This document shows, in pieces, positions 1,322-6,125 of a DNA stretch of 12,104 nt. Location of the stretch: positions 1 through 12,104 of the IMG/VR virus record IMGVR_UViG_2778261064_000004. One strand, written 5' to 3'. The notes under the pieces were generated by a model. It did no database searches, was not told the origin of the DNA, and saw only the letters and a list, made by a program, of their open reading frames with translations. The position numbers and the translations under genes were made by a program. Each line of letters opens with the position of its first letter. Within the stretch, counting starts at the first letter, position 1. This DNA comes from a virus. Taxonomy: Duplodnaviria; Heunggongvirae; Uroviricota; Caudoviricetes.

Positions 1322-1544
1322 GGCGGCTCCCGGGATGAAGTTCCCGATGGAGGATAACGCCCGGAAATACATCACCACGGAAGCGGTGACCGTTGAGAAC
1401 ACCGCTTATTACCGGCGCGCCGTTCAGGACGGTGACCTGATTCTGGTGAAGGATGAGCCTGAAACCACCGTGACGGCTGAACAGGACGCCGTGCAGGTAA
1501 AAGCGAAGGCGAAGAGAGAGAAACAGGTGGATTCCGATGAGTGA
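1302..1544 (+). CDS. Small Mu gp38-like protein (DUF2635 family)
   Basis: 80-aa ORF overlapping the upstream gene by 20 nt and the sheath gene by 8 nt (ATGAGTGA junction). Size and position between gp37-like and sheath genes match Mu gp38. Alternative start at ATG 1311. Confidence 0.65.
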   Translation: MNKMKVKAAPGMKFPMEDNARKYITTEAVTVENTAYYRRAVQDGDLILVKDEPETTVTAEQDAVQVKAKAKREKQVDSDE

Positions 1545-2958
1545 AATTCAGTTTGACACCATTTCGGGCGGCATCCGTAAGCCCGGTGTGCATTTTGAGT
1601 TTAATACCCGGCTGGCCGTTAACACGCTGCCGGGTAATGAACAGCGTGTTCTGGTGATTGGTCCGATGCTGTCAGGCGGCACCGCCACGCCCCTGAATGC
1701 CGTCTCCGTGTATTCCGAAGACGAAGCGGATTTGTATTTCGGGGCCGGTTCGCTGGCCGCTGCAATGGCGCGCGCGGCCATTAACGCCAACAGTTATCTG
1801 CAACTGGATGTTATCGGTATTGCAGACAGTGGCGCAGGACAGGCGGCAACCGGTGCGGTTACCGTCAGCGGTACGGCAATCAGCAGCGGCACACTGTCGG
1901 TATGGGTTGCCGGTGAGCAGGTTACGGTGGATGTGGAAACCGGCGATGAACCGTCGAAAATCATTCCTGCACTGGTGGAAGCAATGACGCAGACGCCATC
2001 GCTTCTGGTCACGGGGGAATACAAATCAGAAACCTCTCAGCTGACGGTGACCACCCGGACCAAAGGTGCCTGGGGGAATGATATCACCCTGTCAGCGTCC
2101 ACCACGGCAGGTGGTCTGACCGTGAGCGCCACGCCGATGGCGAACGGTGAAATGGACCCGGATATTCAGCCCGCACTGGATGCGGTCTTTGCCGCCGGTC
2201 ACAACATTCTGATTTGTCCGTTCAGTACCACGCCAGCCCTTGCCGCCCTGAAGCAGCATCTGGAGAAAACCGGGAACGCGATGGAACAGCGCGGCGCGAT
2301 TGGCTGTGCAGGCTGGACGGGCAGTCTCGGAAACGGGATCACCCTGGCAGCCGGTGTGAACAGTGGGCGCGTGTCCGTCCCCTGGTATCGCGGCTCCGTG
2401 AAGCTGCCAGCGGTGCTGGCTGCCATCTACGGCGCTGTGATGGCGGGCGAGGAAGACCCGGCGCGTCCGCTGAACTCGCTGGCGCTGTCCGGGCTGGATG
2501 TGGTCGCAATGTCACAGCGTGAAAGCCGTAACGAGCAGGAAAACGCCCTGCATAACGGCCTGACGCCGGTTGAGGTTGGCCCGGGTAACACGGTGCAGAT
2601 TGTGCGTGCGGTCAGTACGTACACGGTTAACGCACAGGGTGTGACTGACGTCTCGTTACTGGATATCACGTCCATCAGAACGCTGGACTACACCCGCAAG
2701 GCGTGCCGCGAACGCATCAGCCTTCGCTTCCCGCGCGAAAAACTCAGCACCCGTACTATCGCAAAAGTGGAAAGCGAACTGTATGACGTGCTGATCAAGC
2801 TGGAGGAAGCGGAGATTCTGGAGAACGTGGAAGCGAACAAGGCAAAGCTGCGCGTTCAGCGAAACGGGAAAGATGCAAACCGTCTCGACTGCGTGGTTCC
2901 GGCGGATGTGGTTAACGGCCTGCATGTGTTTGCCGGTCGCATCGACATGATTTTGTAA
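1537..2958 (+). CDS. Contractile tail sheath protein (Mu L-like)
   Basis: 473-aa ORF. AGGTGG Shine-Dalgarno upstream of ATG 1537. Size typical of myophage sheath proteins and it lies immediately upstream of the tube gene. Start overlaps the preceding stop. Confidence 0.85.
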   Translation: MSEIQFDTISGGIRKPGVHFEFNTRLAVNTLPGNEQRVLVIGPMLSGGTATPLNAVSVYSEDEADLYFGAGSLAAAMARAAINANSYLQLDVIGIADSGAGQAATGAVTVSGTAISSGTLSVWVAGEQVTVDVETGDEPSKIIPALVEAMTQTPSLLVTGEYKSETSQLTVTTRTKGAWGNDITLSASTTAGGLTVSATPMANGEMDPDIQPALDAVFAAGHNILICPFSTTPALAALKQHLEKTGNAMEQRGAIGCAGWTGSLGNGITLAAGVNSGRVSVPWYRGSVKLPAVLAAIYGAVMAGEEDPARPLNSLALSGLDVVAMSQRESRNEQENALHNGLTPVEVGPGNTVQIVRAVSTYTVNAQGVTDVSLLDITSIRTLDYTRKACRERISLRFPREKLSTRTIAKVESELYDVLIKLEEAEILENVEANKAKLRVQRNGKDANRLDCVVPADVVNGLHVFAGRIDMIL

Positions 2959-2970
2959 GGAGCGCGGTAA

Positions 2971-3345
2971 ATGTCCATTAAAGAATATGTCGGCTCGATT
3001 GTGCTGGAGGTGGACAGCCAGGAAATCGAGATCACCGACTTCGATGTTCAGATCAACACCGGGCGAAAGCTGGTCAAGACCATGAACAAAACCGGCAGGG
3101 CCAAAGGCTTTGCCCGTGGCATTGCCACTTACGATATTTCAGTTTCGGCGGTGATCCCTGATACCAACGAGCCGGACTGGGAAAATCTGGAAGGTGTGAA
3201 AATCTCAATTTATCCGCTCAGCAACAGCGGCAAGCGCACCTCCTATCTGGACTGCTTCACAACCGAAGTGGGTGAGAAATACACCGTCGACAGTGAAGCG
3301 AAAATTGATATCAAAATGGCTGCACTCAGGAAGGTGACAGGATGA
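2971..3345 (+). CDS. Tail tube protein (Mu M-like)
   Basis: 124-aa ORF with a strong AAGGAG Shine-Dalgarno (about 2951-2956 region, ending 8-9 nt before ATG 2971). Canonical sheath-tube-chaperone-tape measure order. Confidence 0.8.
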   Translation: MSIKEYVGSIVLEVDSQEIEITDFDVQINTGRKLVKTMNKTGRAKGFARGIATYDISVSAVIPDTNEPDWENLEGVKISIYPLSNSGKRTSYLDCFTTEVGEKYTVDSEAKIDIKMAALRKVTG

Positions 3346-3725
3346 CTTTGATTAATACACAGACCGGCGAACTGTCTGATGGCGTGGTGTTTAACGGCAC
3401 CGTTCATAAAAACTTTGAGCTGCGTCTGCCAGTCATGCGTGATAACGGGCAGGCACTGGAAGAAACCGAAGAACGCTTTCAGACGGTGGATGGCTTCGCG
3501 GCGGATTATTACTACCGCTGTGCGGTGATGGCGGCAACGCTGGTCCGTCTGGGGGATATTCCGCAGGAAGAACTGACGGCGGAGCTGTTGCACGACAACA
3601 TGACGCCGGACGATTTTAATATTCTGCTGGCATCACGCAACGTCCTGAAGGTAAAGCGGAACGGCGGGAATCCCGGCTCGCCGGACTCCGGCTCGCAGTC
3701 CTTATCCTCGGGCGCTACGGAATAA
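3342..3725 (+). CDS. Tail assembly chaperone (Mu gp41 / P2 gpE / lambda gpG analogue)
   Basis: 127-aa acidic ORF between the tube and tape-measure genes. AAGGTGA Shine-Dalgarno; ATGA overlap with the tube stop. Followed by an overlapping -1 frame ORF, as is typical of this gene class. Confidence 0.75.
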   Translation: MTLINTQTGELSDGVVFNGTVHKNFELRLPVMRDNGQALEETEERFQTVDGFAADYYYRCAVMAATLVRLGDIPQEELTAELLHDNMTPDDFNILLASRNVLKVKRNGGNPGSPDSGSQSLSSGATE

Positions 3726-3898
3726 CCGAAGAGCAAATCATGACCATGAGCCGTCCCGAGCTGGACGGCTGGCTTGCCGCCGTTGACAGGCTGAACGGCG
3801 GCGGCTCAGGAAGAAAGGACACCTCACAGACCACCCGCCAGTCATTTAAATCCCTCAGAAAGAAACGCAGAAAAGGTAAGCAGAAAAATGGCCGGTAA
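3620..3898 (+). CDS. Putative -1 frame extension of the tail chaperone (gpGT / gpE+E'-like fusion C-terminus); alternatively an independent 52-aa ORF from ATG 3740
   Basis: Frame 2 is open from 3620 (just after an in-frame TAA at 3617-3619) to TAA 3896-3898. It overlaps the last ~35 codons of the chaperone and ends 11 nt into the tape-measure gene. Encodes …ITEEQIMTMSRPELDGWLAAVDRLNGGGSGRKD…KKRRKGKQKNGR. No canonical X_XXY_YYZ heptamer found in the overlap. Confidence 0.45.
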   Translation, partial: YSAGITQRPEGKAERRESRLAGLRLAVLILGRYGITEEQIMTMSRPELDGWLAAVDRLNGGGSGRKDTSQTTRQSFKSLRKKRRKGKQKNGR

Positions 3899-6125
3899 TT
3901 TCAAAGTTGGCATGACCCTGACTGCGAAGGACGAAGCCTCGCAGGTTCTGGAAAAGGGACAAAAACAGGTTATCAAAGCCACCGAAGGTGTAACAAAGGC
4001 AACCCGGAAGGCAGGCGCAGAGCAGAAGCGTACCGGGCAGGAAAGCATTAACAGCACGAAAAAGGCCGCAAAAGAGATACAGCGTGCCGCCCGTGCCCGG
4101 GAAACGCTCGGTATTCGTGCAGAACGCGAGATCCGGCGTGAAATTTATCTGACGGTTGCCAGTTATAACCGTCTGGCCCGCGCCGGTTTTGAATCTGCGC
4201 AGGAGCAGGAGCGCGCCATGCAGGCCACCCGGGAAAAAGCCCGGGCACTCAAGCGTGAACTGGATGGCGTTACTCAGGCTCAGATGAAGATGGCGAAAAC
4301 GCCTGTTATCCCTGAACGGGGGCGTTTTGCCCGTGCGGCTGCATTTGGCGGGAATGCCGTGACAATAGGCGGTGGTATTGCAGCAGGTGCTGCCATTATG
4401 GCGCAGCCGGTCAAAAAGCAGATGAGCTACGAACGCCAGCTGGCAATGATGGCCAATACCGCCTTCAGTGATGGCGGACTGGAGGGGCGCAGGGCTGGTC
4501 TTGAGCAGATGAAAAGCAGCATCCGTAACGCGGTGACCTATGGTGGTGGCACGAAAGAGGATGCAGCCGAAACGCTGGATGCCCTGCTGAAAGACGGCAT
4601 TTCATTTGAAACAGCCAACAAGTGGCTACCTGAACTGATGAAATACGCCACGGCTTCCGGTGCATCTGCAACAGACCTGGCCAACGTAATGGTCAAAGGA
4701 AAAAAGACGTTTGGATTCAGGGATGAAGATATTTCCACCGTTCTGAATATGGCGATTGCAGCGGGGAAAGAAGGCAGCTTTGAACTGAACGATATGGCGC
4801 AATATTTATCGTCACAACTGGGGGCTGCTGCCAATGCCGGGATGAAAGGCAAGGATGATTTCGTCAAGATTCTGGCGCTGAATGAAGCCGCAGCGATTAC
4901 AGCTGGTAACAGCAGCGAAGCCGGAAATAACGTATTTAACCTGCTGGCAAAACTGACCAGTAAGGATATTGAAACAGCGGCTGCGGGAATAAATTACAAC
5001 GGTAAGGGCATCGACTTTGCAGGCACGCTGGTAGAAGCGCGCAAGAACGGGCTTGATCCGATAGACGCGCTGTCCAGCCTGATAGACAAAATCGTTGCCA
5101 GCGATAAACGCTATCAGGAGTTGCAAAAGAAACTGGCATCCGCCCGGGACAAAGGCGAGCAGACGGCTGTTTATGATTCGATGGTAAAACTCCTTGAAGG
5201 TTTTGGTGTCGGAAAGCTGGTTGCAGACCAACAGGCGTTAAAGGCGTTGCTGGCTTATCGTAACAACCCGGAATACCGGAAAAAGGTTGAAGACGCGATT
5301 AATCAGCAGCGCACCCTGCCGGAAGGTCAGCGCGCGGGTGATGTGGATTTTAAATTCATATCAGACACGAATGATTTTAAAACCGGGCAGGCTAAAAACA
5401 CGCTTGAATTTTCACAAATGGATGGCGTGAAAAAACTGGCTGATGCATCCGGGACTGTGGCCGATGCCATAAGCTGGGCGGGTGAAAAATTTCCGGGGCT
5501 GACCACAGCAGTGGTGACAGCTACCACAGCCATTAAAGCGATGACAGCAGCGGCCGTCACGTTTGCGGGGCTGAAACTTATTACCGGTAATCCAGTGTCC
5601 GGAGGAGCAGATAAACCCGATGATACTGGGGATACTGCATCCAAAGTTAAAGATATCAGTGAAGTCGCTTCCGGCAATCAGGGACGTCTGGGAAAAATAA
5701 TGGGCGCAGCCGGAAAAATTGCAACCATTTACGCAGGCTATGAGGCCGCAGAAGAACTTTATGGGGCTGTTGTTGGCGATACCATCAAGAACTTTACAGA
5801 TAATCATGGTTTGTTTTTTGCAGACGATGGCTCCTTGTTCTTTACCCGTGAAGGAATGCTTAAACGGGATAATGAGCTGAAAGCCGCAGCTGATGCTCTG
5901 CCATCACCGGAGCAGGTGAACAAAGCCGCAGGAAACACAACGTCTGAACCGGCATCAGAACAACCCGGACGCATCACCCAGCCGGAATACCTCACGCACT
6001 GGGGACCACCTGCCAGCCCCATAAATTTCACCACACAACTGGTGCTCGATGGTCAGGTCGTGGCGGAGGCAGTGAACAAATACAACCTTCAGGACGGCAA
6101 CAGAGGCACGGGAGGAACTTACTGA
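3888..6125 (+). CDS. Tail tape measure protein (Mu Y-like)
   Basis: 745-aa ORF, the longest in the window, located right after the chaperone/frameshift pair. Ala/Gly/Lys-rich, largely helical-looking sequence with a hydrophobic stretch (…TTAVVTATTAIKAMTAAAVTFAGLKLITG…). Confidence 0.85.
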   Translation: MAGNFKVGMTLTAKDEASQVLEKGQKQVIKATEGVTKATRKAGAEQKRTGQESINSTKKAAKEIQRAARARETLGIRAEREIRREIYLTVASYNRLARAGFESAQEQERAMQATREKARALKRELDGVTQAQMKMAKTPVIPERGRFARAAAFGGNAVTIGGGIAAGAAIMAQPVKKQMSYERQLAMMANTAFSDGGLEGRRAGLEQMKSSIRNAVTYGGGTKEDAAETLDALLKDGISFETANKWLPELMKYATASGASATDLANVMVKGKKTFGFRDEDISTVLNMAIAAGKEGSFELNDMAQYLSSQLGAAANAGMKGKDDFVKILALNEAAAITAGNSSEAGNNVFNLLAKLTSKDIETAAAGINYNGKGIDFAGTLVEARKNGLDPIDALSSLIDKIVASDKRYQELQKKLASARDKGEQTAVYDSMVKLLEGFGVGKLVADQQALKALLAYRNNPEYRKKVEDAINQQRTLPEGQRAGDVDFKFISDTNDFKTGQAKNTLEFSQMDGVKKLADASGTVADAISWAGEKFPGLTTAVVTATTAIKAMTAAAVTFAGLKLITGNPVSGGADKPDDTGDTASKVKDISEVASGNQGRLGKIMGAAGKIATIYAGYEAAEELYGAVVGDTIKNFTDNHGLFFADDGSLFFTREGMLKRDNELKAAADALPSPEQVNKAAGNTTSEPASEQPGRITQPEYLTHWGPPASPINFTTQLVLDGQVVAEAVNKYNLQDGNRGTGGTY

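What the first reader, a model, noticed from the sequence alone, without database searches (positions are those of the whole stretch)
3620..3898. Chaperone/tape-measure junction has gpG-gpGT geometry but no canonical slippery heptamer
A -1 frame ORF opens at 3620 right after its own stop codon, overlaps the last ~35 codons of the chaperone gene, and runs to just inside the tape-measure start. This is the layout of the conserved programmed -1 frameshift in long-tailed phages (lambda G/GT, P2 E/E+E'). However, the zero-frame codons in the overlap (…aag gta aag cgg aac ggc ggg aat ccc ggc tcg…) contain no X_XXY_YYZ site. Either a non-canonical slip site is used or the 52-aa peptide from ATG 3740 is made separately; both would be unusual for this gene pair.
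Basis: partly seen in the sequence, partly recalled or inferred. Interest (0 to 1): 0.5.

Follow-up and report, generated by a model that had tools for sequence, protein, structure and literature searches.

The report
Tail chaperone frameshift at GUA_AAG
A Mu-like E. coli prophage very probably makes the usual two-protein "G / G-T" tail-assembly chaperone pair by a -1 ribosomal slip, using a known weak slip signal (G_GUA_AAG, where only the lysine tRNA re-pairs) instead of the textbook one; this is ordinary biology that genome annotation has missed.

Summary
The -1 frame is open at 3620-3898, overlaps the last 34 codons of the chaperone gene (3342-3725) and stops 11 nt inside the tape-measure gene (3888). 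The chaperone gene has no X_XXY_YYZ heptamer.

The claim that this is unusual does not hold. The gene has one zero-frame A_AAG, in G_GUA_AAG at 3650-3656. Relatives carry G_GCA_AAG, G_GAA_AAG, A_GUA_AAG or A_GCA_AAG at the homologous position. One carries the canonical G_GGA_AAG, and two phages (Klebsiella, Ralstonia) carry A_AAA_AAG. Only NNA_AAG is invariant.

- Zero-frame synonymous variation collapses from codon 103 on, and further downstream the variable position is the third base of the -1 frame.
- The 28 -1-frame codons between the slip site and ATG 3740 contain no start codon, yet they are the best-conserved part of the locus.
- ATG 3740 itself is not conserved.
- In two lineages a -1-frame TAA abuts the heptamer.

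Best reading: a lambda G/GT-type programmed -1 frameshift on a hexanucleotide motif, a class already characterised experimentally in E. coli. It would give a 185-aa fusion. A conserved hairpin 5 nt downstream may stimulate it, but this is unproven.

This is a new member of a known kind, annotated in RefSeq as two hypothetical proteins. There is no direct protein evidence.

The parts
1537..2958 (+). Tail sheath gene (context)
   Evidence: Pfam Phage_sheath_1/1C and phrog_165, E 1e-173.
2971..3345 (+). Tail tube gene (context)
   Evidence: phrog_185 tail tube, E 3e-35.
3342..3725 (+). Tail assembly chaperone gene ('G'). The zero-frame product is 127 aa.
3617..3619 (+). TAA stop in the -1 frame. 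It is the upstream limit of the -1 open frame in the window.
   Evidence: In relatives the limiting stop lies closer to the slip site, and it directly abuts the heptamer in L039 and L047.
3650..3656 (+). Proposed slip site G_GUA_AAG (hexanucleotide GUA_AAG 3651-3656). Lys-tRNA re-pairs from AAG (3654-3656) to AAA (3653-3655).
   Evidence: It holds the only zero-frame A_AAG in the gene. The homologous position carries G_GCA_AAG, G_GAA_AAG, A_GUA_AAG, A_GCA_AAG, canonical G_GGA_AAG (L025) and A_AAA_AAG (L039, L040). The third base of codon 104 (A) and codon 105 (AAG) are invariant in 33 unique sequences.
3657..3690 (+). Candidate stimulatory hairpin. The inner stem is 3662-3668 CGGCGGG paired with 3677-3683 CUCGCCG, with an 8-nt loop. 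The outer stem is 3657-3660 paired with 3687-3690. The inner stem starts 5 nt after the slip site.
   Evidence: MFE -17.3 kcal/mol. The RNAalifold consensus recovers the 7-bp stem in 15 diverse sequences with one compensatory GC to AU change. Against it: the z-score versus shuffles is only -0.37, covariation is not significant (70/500 shuffles), and L043 breaks two pairs.
3663..3684 (+). A 22-nt block, GGCGGGAATCCCGGCTCGCCGG, invariant in 10 sequences from close relatives (94% chaperone identity) down to 53-65%
   Evidence: It covers the hairpin stem and loop and is also dual-coding (GGNPGSP in frame 0, RRESRLAG in frame -1).
3656..3898 (+). -1-frame 'T' extension of 80 codons plus the TAA stop. 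The predicted G-T fusion is residues 1-105 of G plus these 80 residues, 185 aa in total.
   Evidence: BLASTP against the T part of Klebsiella phage ST405-OXA48phi1.1 gives E 6e-9, with the alignment starting at residue 1 of both, in register with the slip site. AF2 single-sequence prediction gives helices 2-20, 25-30 and 33-46.
3740..3898 (+). 52-aa ORF as annotated in RefSeq (WP_000178828, hypothetical protein); phrog_3114
   Evidence: ATG 3740 is not conserved: it is Val or Ala in L025, L042, L047 and L048. Met 3746 is universal.
3888..6125 (+). Tape measure protein gene (context)
   Evidence: Pfam PhageMin_Tail and phrog_794, E 2e-223.

Best explanation
The window is the tail module of a Mu-like E. 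coli prophage. The chaperone gene (3342-3725) and the -1 ORF behind it form a lambda G/GT-type pair expressed by a programmed -1 ribosomal frameshift.

Most ribosomes terminate at 3723-3725 and give the 127-aa chaperone. A minority slip back one base at G_GUA_AAG (3650-3656) and make the fusion.

Proposed slip mechanism (inferred):
- The slip happens when Val-tRNA is on GUA in the P site and Lys-tRNA is on AAG in the A site.
- The Lys-tRNA re-pairs from AAG to AAA.
- The P-site tRNA cannot re-pair cognately, so this is essentially single-tRNA ('hexanucleotide NNA_AAG') slippage.
- Translation continues with GCG at 3656 in the -1 frame to TAA 3896-3898. The product is a 185-aa fusion: the folded G domain (1-105) plus an 80-aa helical, C-terminally basic T domain.

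A GC-rich hairpin 5 nt downstream probably raises the low intrinsic efficiency of the motif to the few per cent needed.

By analogy with lambda, G and GT coat the tape-measure protein, and the T part recruits the tube protein.

What is shown here: the anatomy, the conservation pattern, the homologous canonical heptamers in relatives, and the chaperone fold.

What is inferred: that slippage actually occurs, its efficiency, the role of the hairpin, and the function of the T part.

For: 2. Motif. The gene's only zero-frame A_AAG lies in the overlap.

3. Homologous position in relatives.
- Four non-canonical variants occur: G_GCA_AAG, G_GAA_AAG, A_GUA_AAG, A_GCA_AAG.
- The canonical lambda heptamer G_GGA_AAG occurs in L025.
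- A_AAA_AAG occurs in Klebsiella phage ST405-OXA48phi1.1 and Ralstonia phage YO374_1.
- Only NNA_AAG is invariant.

4. 5' bound. In L039 and L047 a -1-frame TAA directly abuts the heptamer. In six further lineages the frame opens only 2-3 codons before it.

5. Synonymous sites. In 33 unique sequences, zero-frame third-position entropy is 0.6-0.9 along the gene and falls to 0.04-0.2 from codon 103 on. After 3690 the variable position is zero-frame position 2, which is -1-frame position 3.

6. Conservation of the T part. The 28 -1-frame residues between the slip site and ATG 3740 are 75-96% identical to the window in family members whose G part is 52-87% identical. There is no ATG/GTG/TTG in 3620-3739. 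The T part of the 38%-identical Klebsiella phage aligns from residue 1 without a gap (E 6e-9).

7. Structure.
- The last helix of G (89-106) ends at the slip Lys105, and residues 107-127 are disordered.
- The T model's most confident stretch (residues 11-40) straddles the Met encoded by ATG 3740.

8. Literature.
- NNA_AAG motifs give -1 frameshifting in E. coli, with higher levels when the 5' codon is read by a tRNA of high wobble propensity. IS1222 uses G_CGA_AAG (PMC5009743).
- A_AAG is the most shift-prone tetramer, reaching up to 5.6% with a pseudoknot (PMC4066793).
Against: - No protein-level or ribosome-profiling evidence exists. Everything is comparative.
- Without a stimulator, A_AAG alone is barely above background (about 0.15%, PMC4066793).
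- The proposed hairpin is not statistically distinguishable from shuffled sequence (z -0.37) and has no significant covariation. One relative (L043) breaks two of its pairs.
- The invariance of 3663-3684 could be due to dual coding alone.
- A weak SD-like GAAGAG lies 6 nt upstream of ATG 3740, and Met 3746 is universally conserved. An independently initiated small product is therefore not excluded.
- No Pfam or NCBIfam model recognises either protein.
Confidence: 0.8

Rival explanations
1. There is no frameshift. The -1 ORF is an independent small gene translated from ATG 3740 (52 aa) or ATG 3746 (50 aa), as RefSeq annotates it. The open frame upstream is incidental.
For: - RefSeq/PGAP and gene callers annotate a free-standing 50-56-aa ORF.
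- phrog_3114 models it from residue 1.
- A weak SD-like GAAGAG lies 6 nt upstream of ATG 3740.
- Met 3746 is conserved in all relatives.
Against: - The 28 codons upstream of ATG 3740 are the most conserved part of the locus and have no start codon.
- ATG 3740 is replaced by Val or Ala codons in L025, L042, L047 and L048.
- Substitution patterns show the -1 frame is the selected frame from the A_AAG onward.
- Relatives have canonical heptamers at exactly that point.
- The predicted first helix of the T domain lies entirely upstream of the ATG.
Confidence: 0.08
2. A -1 frameshift occurs, but at another place in the overlap. Candidates are C_GGC_GGG, GGG_AAU (3662-3671) or C_UCG_GGC (3707-3713).
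For: The whole 3654-3690 stretch is invariant, so conservation alone does not single out one site within it. G_GGC at 3710-3713 is a Z_ZZN tetramer.
Against: - G_GGN tetramers were barely or not at all shift-prone in E. coli (PMC4066793).
- The -1 peptide is conserved and aligns in register from the residue right after the A_AAG.
- The distant phages L039 and L040 share only the A_AAG-containing heptamer with the window, not the downstream sequence.
Confidence: 0.07
3. The fusion is made by transcriptional slippage, or by a +1/-2 shift as in phage Mu.
For: Mu, which has the same gene order, uses a verified -2 shift (AF083977 annotation; PMC5009743). Relatives L027-L029 have their bridging ORF in the +1 frame.
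Against: - There is no homopolymer run of 5 or more in 3600-3730.
- The +1 frame of the window is open only over 3655-3786 and does not reach the tape-measure gene.
- The conserved extension is in the -1 frame.
Confidence: 0.02
4. The feature is a chance open frame or a decaying prophage remnant with no function.
For: Stop-free stretches of 60 or more codons do occur in alternative frames of this 56% GC window: 6 of 229 in the -1 frame.
Against: Only 1 of 229 stretches reaches 93 codons. The frame and its peptide are conserved across E. coli, Citrobacter, Yersinia, Enterobacter, Trabulsiella, Intestinirhabdus, and isolated Klebsiella and Ralstonia phages.
Confidence: 0.01

Closest known systems
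Lambda G / G-T (and HK97 gp10-type) tail assembly chaperone programmed -1 frameshift (Levin 1993; Xu, Hendrix & Duda 2004, as cited in PMC5009743)
   Same: - Position between the major tail (tube) gene and the tape-measure gene.
- A short chaperone ORF with a -1 ORF that overlaps its 3' end and runs to the tape-measure start.
- The slip occurs on an ..A_AAG lysine codon. Lambda uses G_GGA_AAG, and relative L025 has exactly that heptamer at the homologous site.
   Different: - The heptamer is G_GUA_AAG, so the P-site tRNA cannot re-pair fully.
- There is no detectable sequence similarity to lambda G or T, and no Pfam hit.
- The phage has a contractile Mu-type tail.
- The frameshift has not been demonstrated experimentally here.
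Hexanucleotide NNA_AAG / tetranucleotide A_AAG -1 frameshift motifs (B. subtilis cdd A_CGA_AAG; IS1222 G_CGA_AAG; Licznar et al. 2003; Sharma et al. 2014)
   Same: - The invariant element across the family is NNA_AAG.
- The A-site Lys-tRNA slips from AAG to AAA.
- Intrinsic efficiency is low, and a downstream structure is needed for per-cent-level shifting.
   Different: Those cases are an incidental cellular event and an IS transposase. Here the motif would serve the phage G/GT ratio. Efficiency with GUA or GCA as the 5' codon was not retrievable from the papers I could read.
Phage Mu gp41 / FS-gp41 (Mu_41/Mu_56), verified -2 frameshift
   Same: The same tail gene order (L, M, chaperone, tape measure, N, P) and the same logic of a chaperone with a frameshift-extended form.
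   Different: - Mu shifts by -2 into the +1 frame at a CGG_GGG_CGA region. The window shifts into the -1 frame.
- Mu gp41 and its extension show no sequence similarity to the window proteins. Only a weak fold hit was found (BFVD E 0.17).
E. coli dnaX A_AAA_AAG frameshift
   Same: Lys AAG in the A site, a downstream stem-loop a few nucleotides after the motif, and relatives L039 and L040 use the very same heptamer.
   Different: dnaX also has an upstream SD-like stimulator and a fully re-pairing P-site codon, and it shifts at about 50%. No conserved upstream SD-like element is seen here.

Membership tests
G/GT-type tail assembly chaperone frameshift pair (Xu et al. 2004) | Located between the major tail/tube gene and the tape-measure gene, on the same strand | tested here: met
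   Tube 2971-3345, chaperone 3342-3725, tape measure 3888-6125.
G/GT-type tail assembly chaperone frameshift pair (Xu et al. 2004) | A second ORF in another frame overlaps the 3' end of the first and has no plausible own start at its conserved 5' part | tested here: met
   The -1 frame is open over 3620-3898. There is no ATG/GTG/TTG before 3740. The pre-ATG peptide is 75-96% conserved.
G/GT-type tail assembly chaperone frameshift pair (Xu et al. 2004) | A slippery sequence in the overlap, conserved in relatives | tested here: met
   NNA_AAG is invariant in about 40 distinct sequences. Canonical G_GGA_AAG or A_AAA_AAG occurs at the homologous site in L025, L039 and L040. The window's own motif is not canonical X_XXY_YYZ.
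G/GT-type tail assembly chaperone frameshift pair (Xu et al. 2004) | The G part has the tail-assembly-chaperone fold or family | tested here: met
G/GT-type tail assembly chaperone frameshift pair (Xu et al. 2004) | Both the short product and the frameshift fusion are actually synthesised, at a fixed ratio, and are needed for tail assembly | not testable with these tools
   This needs mass spectrometry, western blotting, a reporter or genetics.
Hexanucleotide NNA_AAG single-tRNA -1 slippage (Licznar et al. 2003) | A zero-frame NNA_AAG in which Lys-tRNA can re-pair to AAA | tested here: met
   GUA_AAG at 3651-3656. The third base A of codon 104 and the AAG of codon 105 have zero entropy in 33 sequences.
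Hexanucleotide NNA_AAG single-tRNA -1 slippage (Licznar et al. 2003) | P-site re-pairing is dispensable, so the first three heptamer positions are free to vary | tested here: met
   G_GU, G_GC, G_GA, G_GG, A_GU, A_GC and A_AA are all seen at the homologous site.
Hexanucleotide NNA_AAG single-tRNA -1 slippage (Licznar et al. 2003) | A downstream structure or upstream SD acting as stimulator | tested here: inconclusive
   A conserved 7-bp GC stem starts 5 nt downstream (-17.3 kcal/mol with the outer stem) and shows one compensatory change. It is not significant against shuffles or in the covariation controls. No conserved upstream SD is present. There is no Rfam match.
Mu-type -2 frameshift chaperone (Mu gp41/FS-gp41) | The extension is encoded in the +1 frame and reached by a -2 shift | tested here: not met
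   The +1 frame closes at 3786, and the conserved extension is in the -1 frame. There is no sequence similarity to Mu gp41.

The most novel reading that the evidence does not exclude
This chaperone family is a natural allelic series for bacterial -1 frameshifting. The P-site codon varies freely (GUA, GCA, GAA, GGA, AAA; preceding base G or A), while A_AAG and an invariant 22-nt GC-rich hairpin block are fixed.

The most novel reading still allowed is that the 3663-3684 element is a dedicated, sequence-specific stimulator. Its loop is invariant, which could point to a pseudoknot or a ribosome- or protein-contacting element. Such a stimulator would make a weak single-tRNA motif deliver the correct G:GT ratio.

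A further possibility is that a third product initiated at the universally conserved Met 3746 is also made.
Probability: 0.2. Interest if true: 0.45.

Novelty: new member of a known kind. Interest (0 to 1): 0.3.

Why it matters
Practical value: in RefSeq this prophage family (56 of 5,426 complete E. coli genomes, plus Citrobacter, Yersinia, Enterobacter and related prophages and a Klebsiella phage) carries two 'hypothetical protein' genes. The correct annotation is a tail assembly chaperone and its ribosomal-slippage fusion.

The site also shows why heptamer-only searches miss real tail-chaperone frameshifts.

Conceptual value: modest. The family documents, within one homologous site, interchange between canonical heptamers and NNA_AAG motifs. 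This agrees with the bacterial rule that cognate A-site re-pairing on A_AAG matters most. It does not open a new question.

Tried and rejected
- **Nucleotide search against isolated phages.** Megablast of 2900-4300 against 50,697 phage records found nothing. tblastn with the chaperone found only four distant phages.
- **Pfam and NCBIfam.** Searches of G and T, even at E of 1-10, returned nothing. A PDB sequence search returned nothing meaningful.
- **Rfam.** The search of 3500-3950 gave only a chance sRNA hit on the opposite strand.
- **Pseudoknot.** I considered pairing the hairpin loop CCCG with CGGG at 3709-3712. I rejected it because G3712 is A in five relatives.
- **Upstream SD-like stimulator.** None is conserved. 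AGGGAA-like strings occur in some relatives only.
- **Transcriptional slippage.** Rejected because there is no homopolymer run.
- **+1/-2 shift.** Rejected because the +1 frame closes at 3786.
- **Licznar et al. 2003.** The paper could not be retrieved, so the relative efficiency of GUA and GCA as 5' codons rests on the review's summary and on my own knowledge that tRNA-Val and tRNA-Ala carry cmo5U34.
- **Literal motif search in papers.** A search for GGUAAAG or GGCAAAG found nothing.
- It used the wrong frame for L040 and should be ignored. One search is the correct comparison.
- **+1-frame peptide of L027.** It has no BLASTP similarity to the window's T part, so I do not claim homology there.

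Full report
**1. What is there**

The window is the tail module of a Mu-like prophage. It is 100% identical to E. coli OkiPb01701 and is found in 56 of 5,426 complete E. coli genomes.

The gene order is as follows:
- sheath, 1537-2958
- tube, 2971-3345
- a 127-aa protein, 3342-3725, matching phrog_508 'tail assembly chaperone' (E 4.5e-40)
- a 52-aa ORF, 3740-3898 (phrog_3114, function unknown)
- tape-measure protein, 3888-6125
- DNA-circularisation protein
- gpP-like hub

RefSeq calls the chaperone and the 52-aa ORF 'hypothetical protein' and annotates no slippage. All database homologues of the small ORF are likewise unnamed.

**2. Checking the observation**

- The -1 frame relative to the chaperone has a TAA at 3617-3619. 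It is open from 3620 to TAA 3896-3898 and contains no ATG/GTG/TTG before 3740.
- It overlaps 34 chaperone codons and ends 11 nt inside the tape-measure gene.
- No X_XXY_YYZ heptamer exists in the zero frame of the whole chaperone gene.
- Stop-free -1 stretches inside the window's genes average 15 codons, and only 1 of 229 reaches 93.

**3. Where the shift must be**

The gene has one zero-frame A_AAG.

I collected relatives from IMG/VR, metagenomes, GTDB genomes, Logan/NCBI contigs and two isolated phages. At the homologous position they carry:
- G_GUA_AAG
- G_GCA_AAG
- G_GAA_AAG (L042)
- A_GUA_AAG (L043)
- A_GCA_AAG (L044)
- the canonical lambda heptamer G_GGA_AAG (L025, 60% identical chaperone)
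- the canonical A_AAA_AAG (Klebsiella phage ST405-OXA48phi1.1, L039, and Ralstonia phage YO374_1, L040; 38-40% identity)

Only NNA_AAG is invariant.

In L039 and L047 a -1-frame TAA directly abuts the heptamer. In six further lineages the -1 frame opens only 2-3 codons upstream. The shift therefore cannot lie further 5'.

On the 3' side, the -1 peptide is conserved from the first residue after the lysine. The T part of the Klebsiella phage aligns with the window's from residue 1 of both, ungapped over 50 residues (E 6e-9). The Ralstonia phage aligns across the Met region (E 1e-4).

**4. Evidence that the -1 frame is translated upstream of ATG 3740**

- In 33 unique family sequences, zero-frame third-position entropy is 0.6-0.9 along the gene. 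It drops to 0.04-0.2 from codon 103 (3648) onward.
- Beyond 3690 the most variable position is zero-frame position 2, which is the third position of the -1 frame.
- The A at the third position of codon 104 and the AAG of codon 105 never vary. This holds although codon 104 encodes Val, Ala, Glu, Gly or Lys in different lineages.
- The 28 -1-frame residues between the slip site and ATG 3740 are 75-96% identical to the window in family members whose G part is 52-87% identical. The zero-frame tail after the slip is a variable Ser/Pro/Gly/Asp-rich stretch.
- ATG 3740 is Val or Ala in L025, L042, L047 and L048. Only Met 3746 is universal.
- L046 carries a CGG to AGA double substitution that is synonymous (Arg) in the -1 frame.

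**5. Protein models**

- AF2 with the family alignment folds the chaperone over residues 1-106. The last helix (89-106) ends at the slip Lys105, and residues 107-127 are disordered.
- BFVD hits are weak. They include tape-measure chaperones and Mu FS-gp41 (E 0.17).
- Single-sequence AF2 of the 80-aa T part (mean pLDDT 68.5) predicts helices 2-20, 25-30 and 33-46. The best confidence is over residues 11-40, which straddles the Met encoded by ATG 3740. A 52-aa product would lack the first helix.

**6. Mechanism**

The literature I could read gives the following:
- NNA_AAG hexanucleotides support -1 frameshifting in E. coli through re-pairing of tRNA-Lys from AAG to AAA. Levels are higher when the 5' codon is read by a tRNA with high wobble propensity.
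- G_CGA_AAG is used productively by IS1222, and G_GU is a known partial P-site motif in T7 gene 10 (PMC5009743).
- A_AAG is the most shift-prone tetramer: about 0.15% alone and up to 5.6% with the IS3 pseudoknot (PMC4066793).
- Lambda needs a G:GT ratio of about 30:1 (PMC5009743), so a weak motif with a moderate stimulator would be adequate.
- From my own knowledge, E. coli tRNA-Val(UAC) and tRNA-Ala(UGC) carry cmo5U34 and wobble broadly. This fits GUA and GCA being the commonest 5' codons.

**7. The candidate stimulator**

- Immediately downstream lies a hairpin: inner stem CGGCGGG (3662-3668) with CUCGCCG (3677-3683), an 8-nt loop, a 5-nt spacer and a 4-bp outer stem. Its energy is -17.3 kcal/mol.
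- A 22-nt block, 3663-3684, is invariant in ten sequences from close relatives down to 53-65% chaperone identity.
- The one strongly variable base in the region, 3661, is the predicted bulge.
- RNAalifold recovers the stem in 15 sequences with one compensatory GC to AU change, in L046.

The hairpin remains unproven for these reasons:
- The fold is no better than shuffles of this GC-rich sequence (z -0.37).
- Covariation controls are not significant.
- L043 breaks two pairs.
- Dual coding could explain the invariance.

There is no Rfam match and no conserved upstream SD-like element. I therefore treat the hairpin as a plausible but unproven stimulator.

**8. Comparison with known systems**

- The layout and logic are those of lambda G/GT. 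The chaperone fold and one relative's heptamer agree with that.
- Phage Mu, which shares the gene order, uses a verified -2 shift in an unrelated sequence. The window does not, because its +1 frame closes at 3786.
- Three distant relatives (L027-L029) have their bridging ORF in the +1 frame, like Mu. That peptide shows no BLASTP similarity to the window's T part.
- The PRFect survey notes that the XXXYYY motif is absent from most annotated phage frameshift overlaps (PMC10885494). The lack of a canonical heptamer is therefore not exceptional.

**9. Verdict**

- The 'non-canonical slip site' option is supported and localised to G_GUA_AAG (3650-3656). The predicted fusion is 185 aa.
- The 'unusual' claim is not supported.
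- This is a new, so far unannotated member of a well-known kind, using a known class of weak slip motif.
- Confidence in the frameshift reading is about 0.8. Confidence in a stimulatory role for the hairpin is about 0.4.
- Nothing here is direct protein evidence.

Noticed in passing
L027:1745-1987, L028 (same), L029:1769-2020: In three distant relatives of the chaperone (29-32% identity), the -1 frame closes soon after the chaperone stop. A +1-frame ORF of about 80 codons bridges to the next gene instead, as in phage Mu (-2 shift). The L027 chaperone ends ...GAA AAC AAA AAA TAG. The +1 peptide has no BLASTP similarity to the window's T part. The frame used for the extension therefore differs within one chaperone superfamily.
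   Followed up: partly
window 3663-3684: The 22-nt block GGCGGGAATCCCGGCTCGCCGG is invariant in ten sequences from close relatives down to 53-65% chaperone identity. This includes the 8-nt hairpin loop, which is more than a simple stem would need. Dual coding (GGNPGSP / RRESRLAG) or a higher-order RNA element could both explain it.
   Followed up: partly
window 3845-3898: The C-terminus of the T part is extremely basic (KSLRKKRRKGKQKNGR), and this is conserved in all -1-type relatives. Its stop TAA (3896-3898) lies inside codons 3-4 of the tape-measure gene (ATGGCCGGTAA).
   Followed up: no
window 3660-3725 (chaperone residues 107-127): The zero-frame tail of the chaperone after the slip site is a disordered Ser/Pro/Gly/Asp-rich stretch (pLDDT below 50). 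Its length varies (22-27 residues) and its stop moves between relatives (for example L015 is 6 codons longer). Its first part, GGNPGSPDS, is nevertheless nearly invariant.
   Followed up: partly
L046:1506-1556 and L043:1509-1559: L046 has a compensatory GC to AU change in the hairpin stem. It also has a CGG to AGA change that is synonymous in the -1 frame only. L043 (A_GUA_AAG) disrupts two stem pairs, so the hairpin is not universally kept.
   Followed up: yes
window 2971-3345 and 3342-3725: Neither the tube protein nor the chaperone of this prophage family is recognised by any Pfam or NCBIfam model. Only PHROGs recognise them. This is why RefSeq labels them hypothetical.
   Followed up: yes
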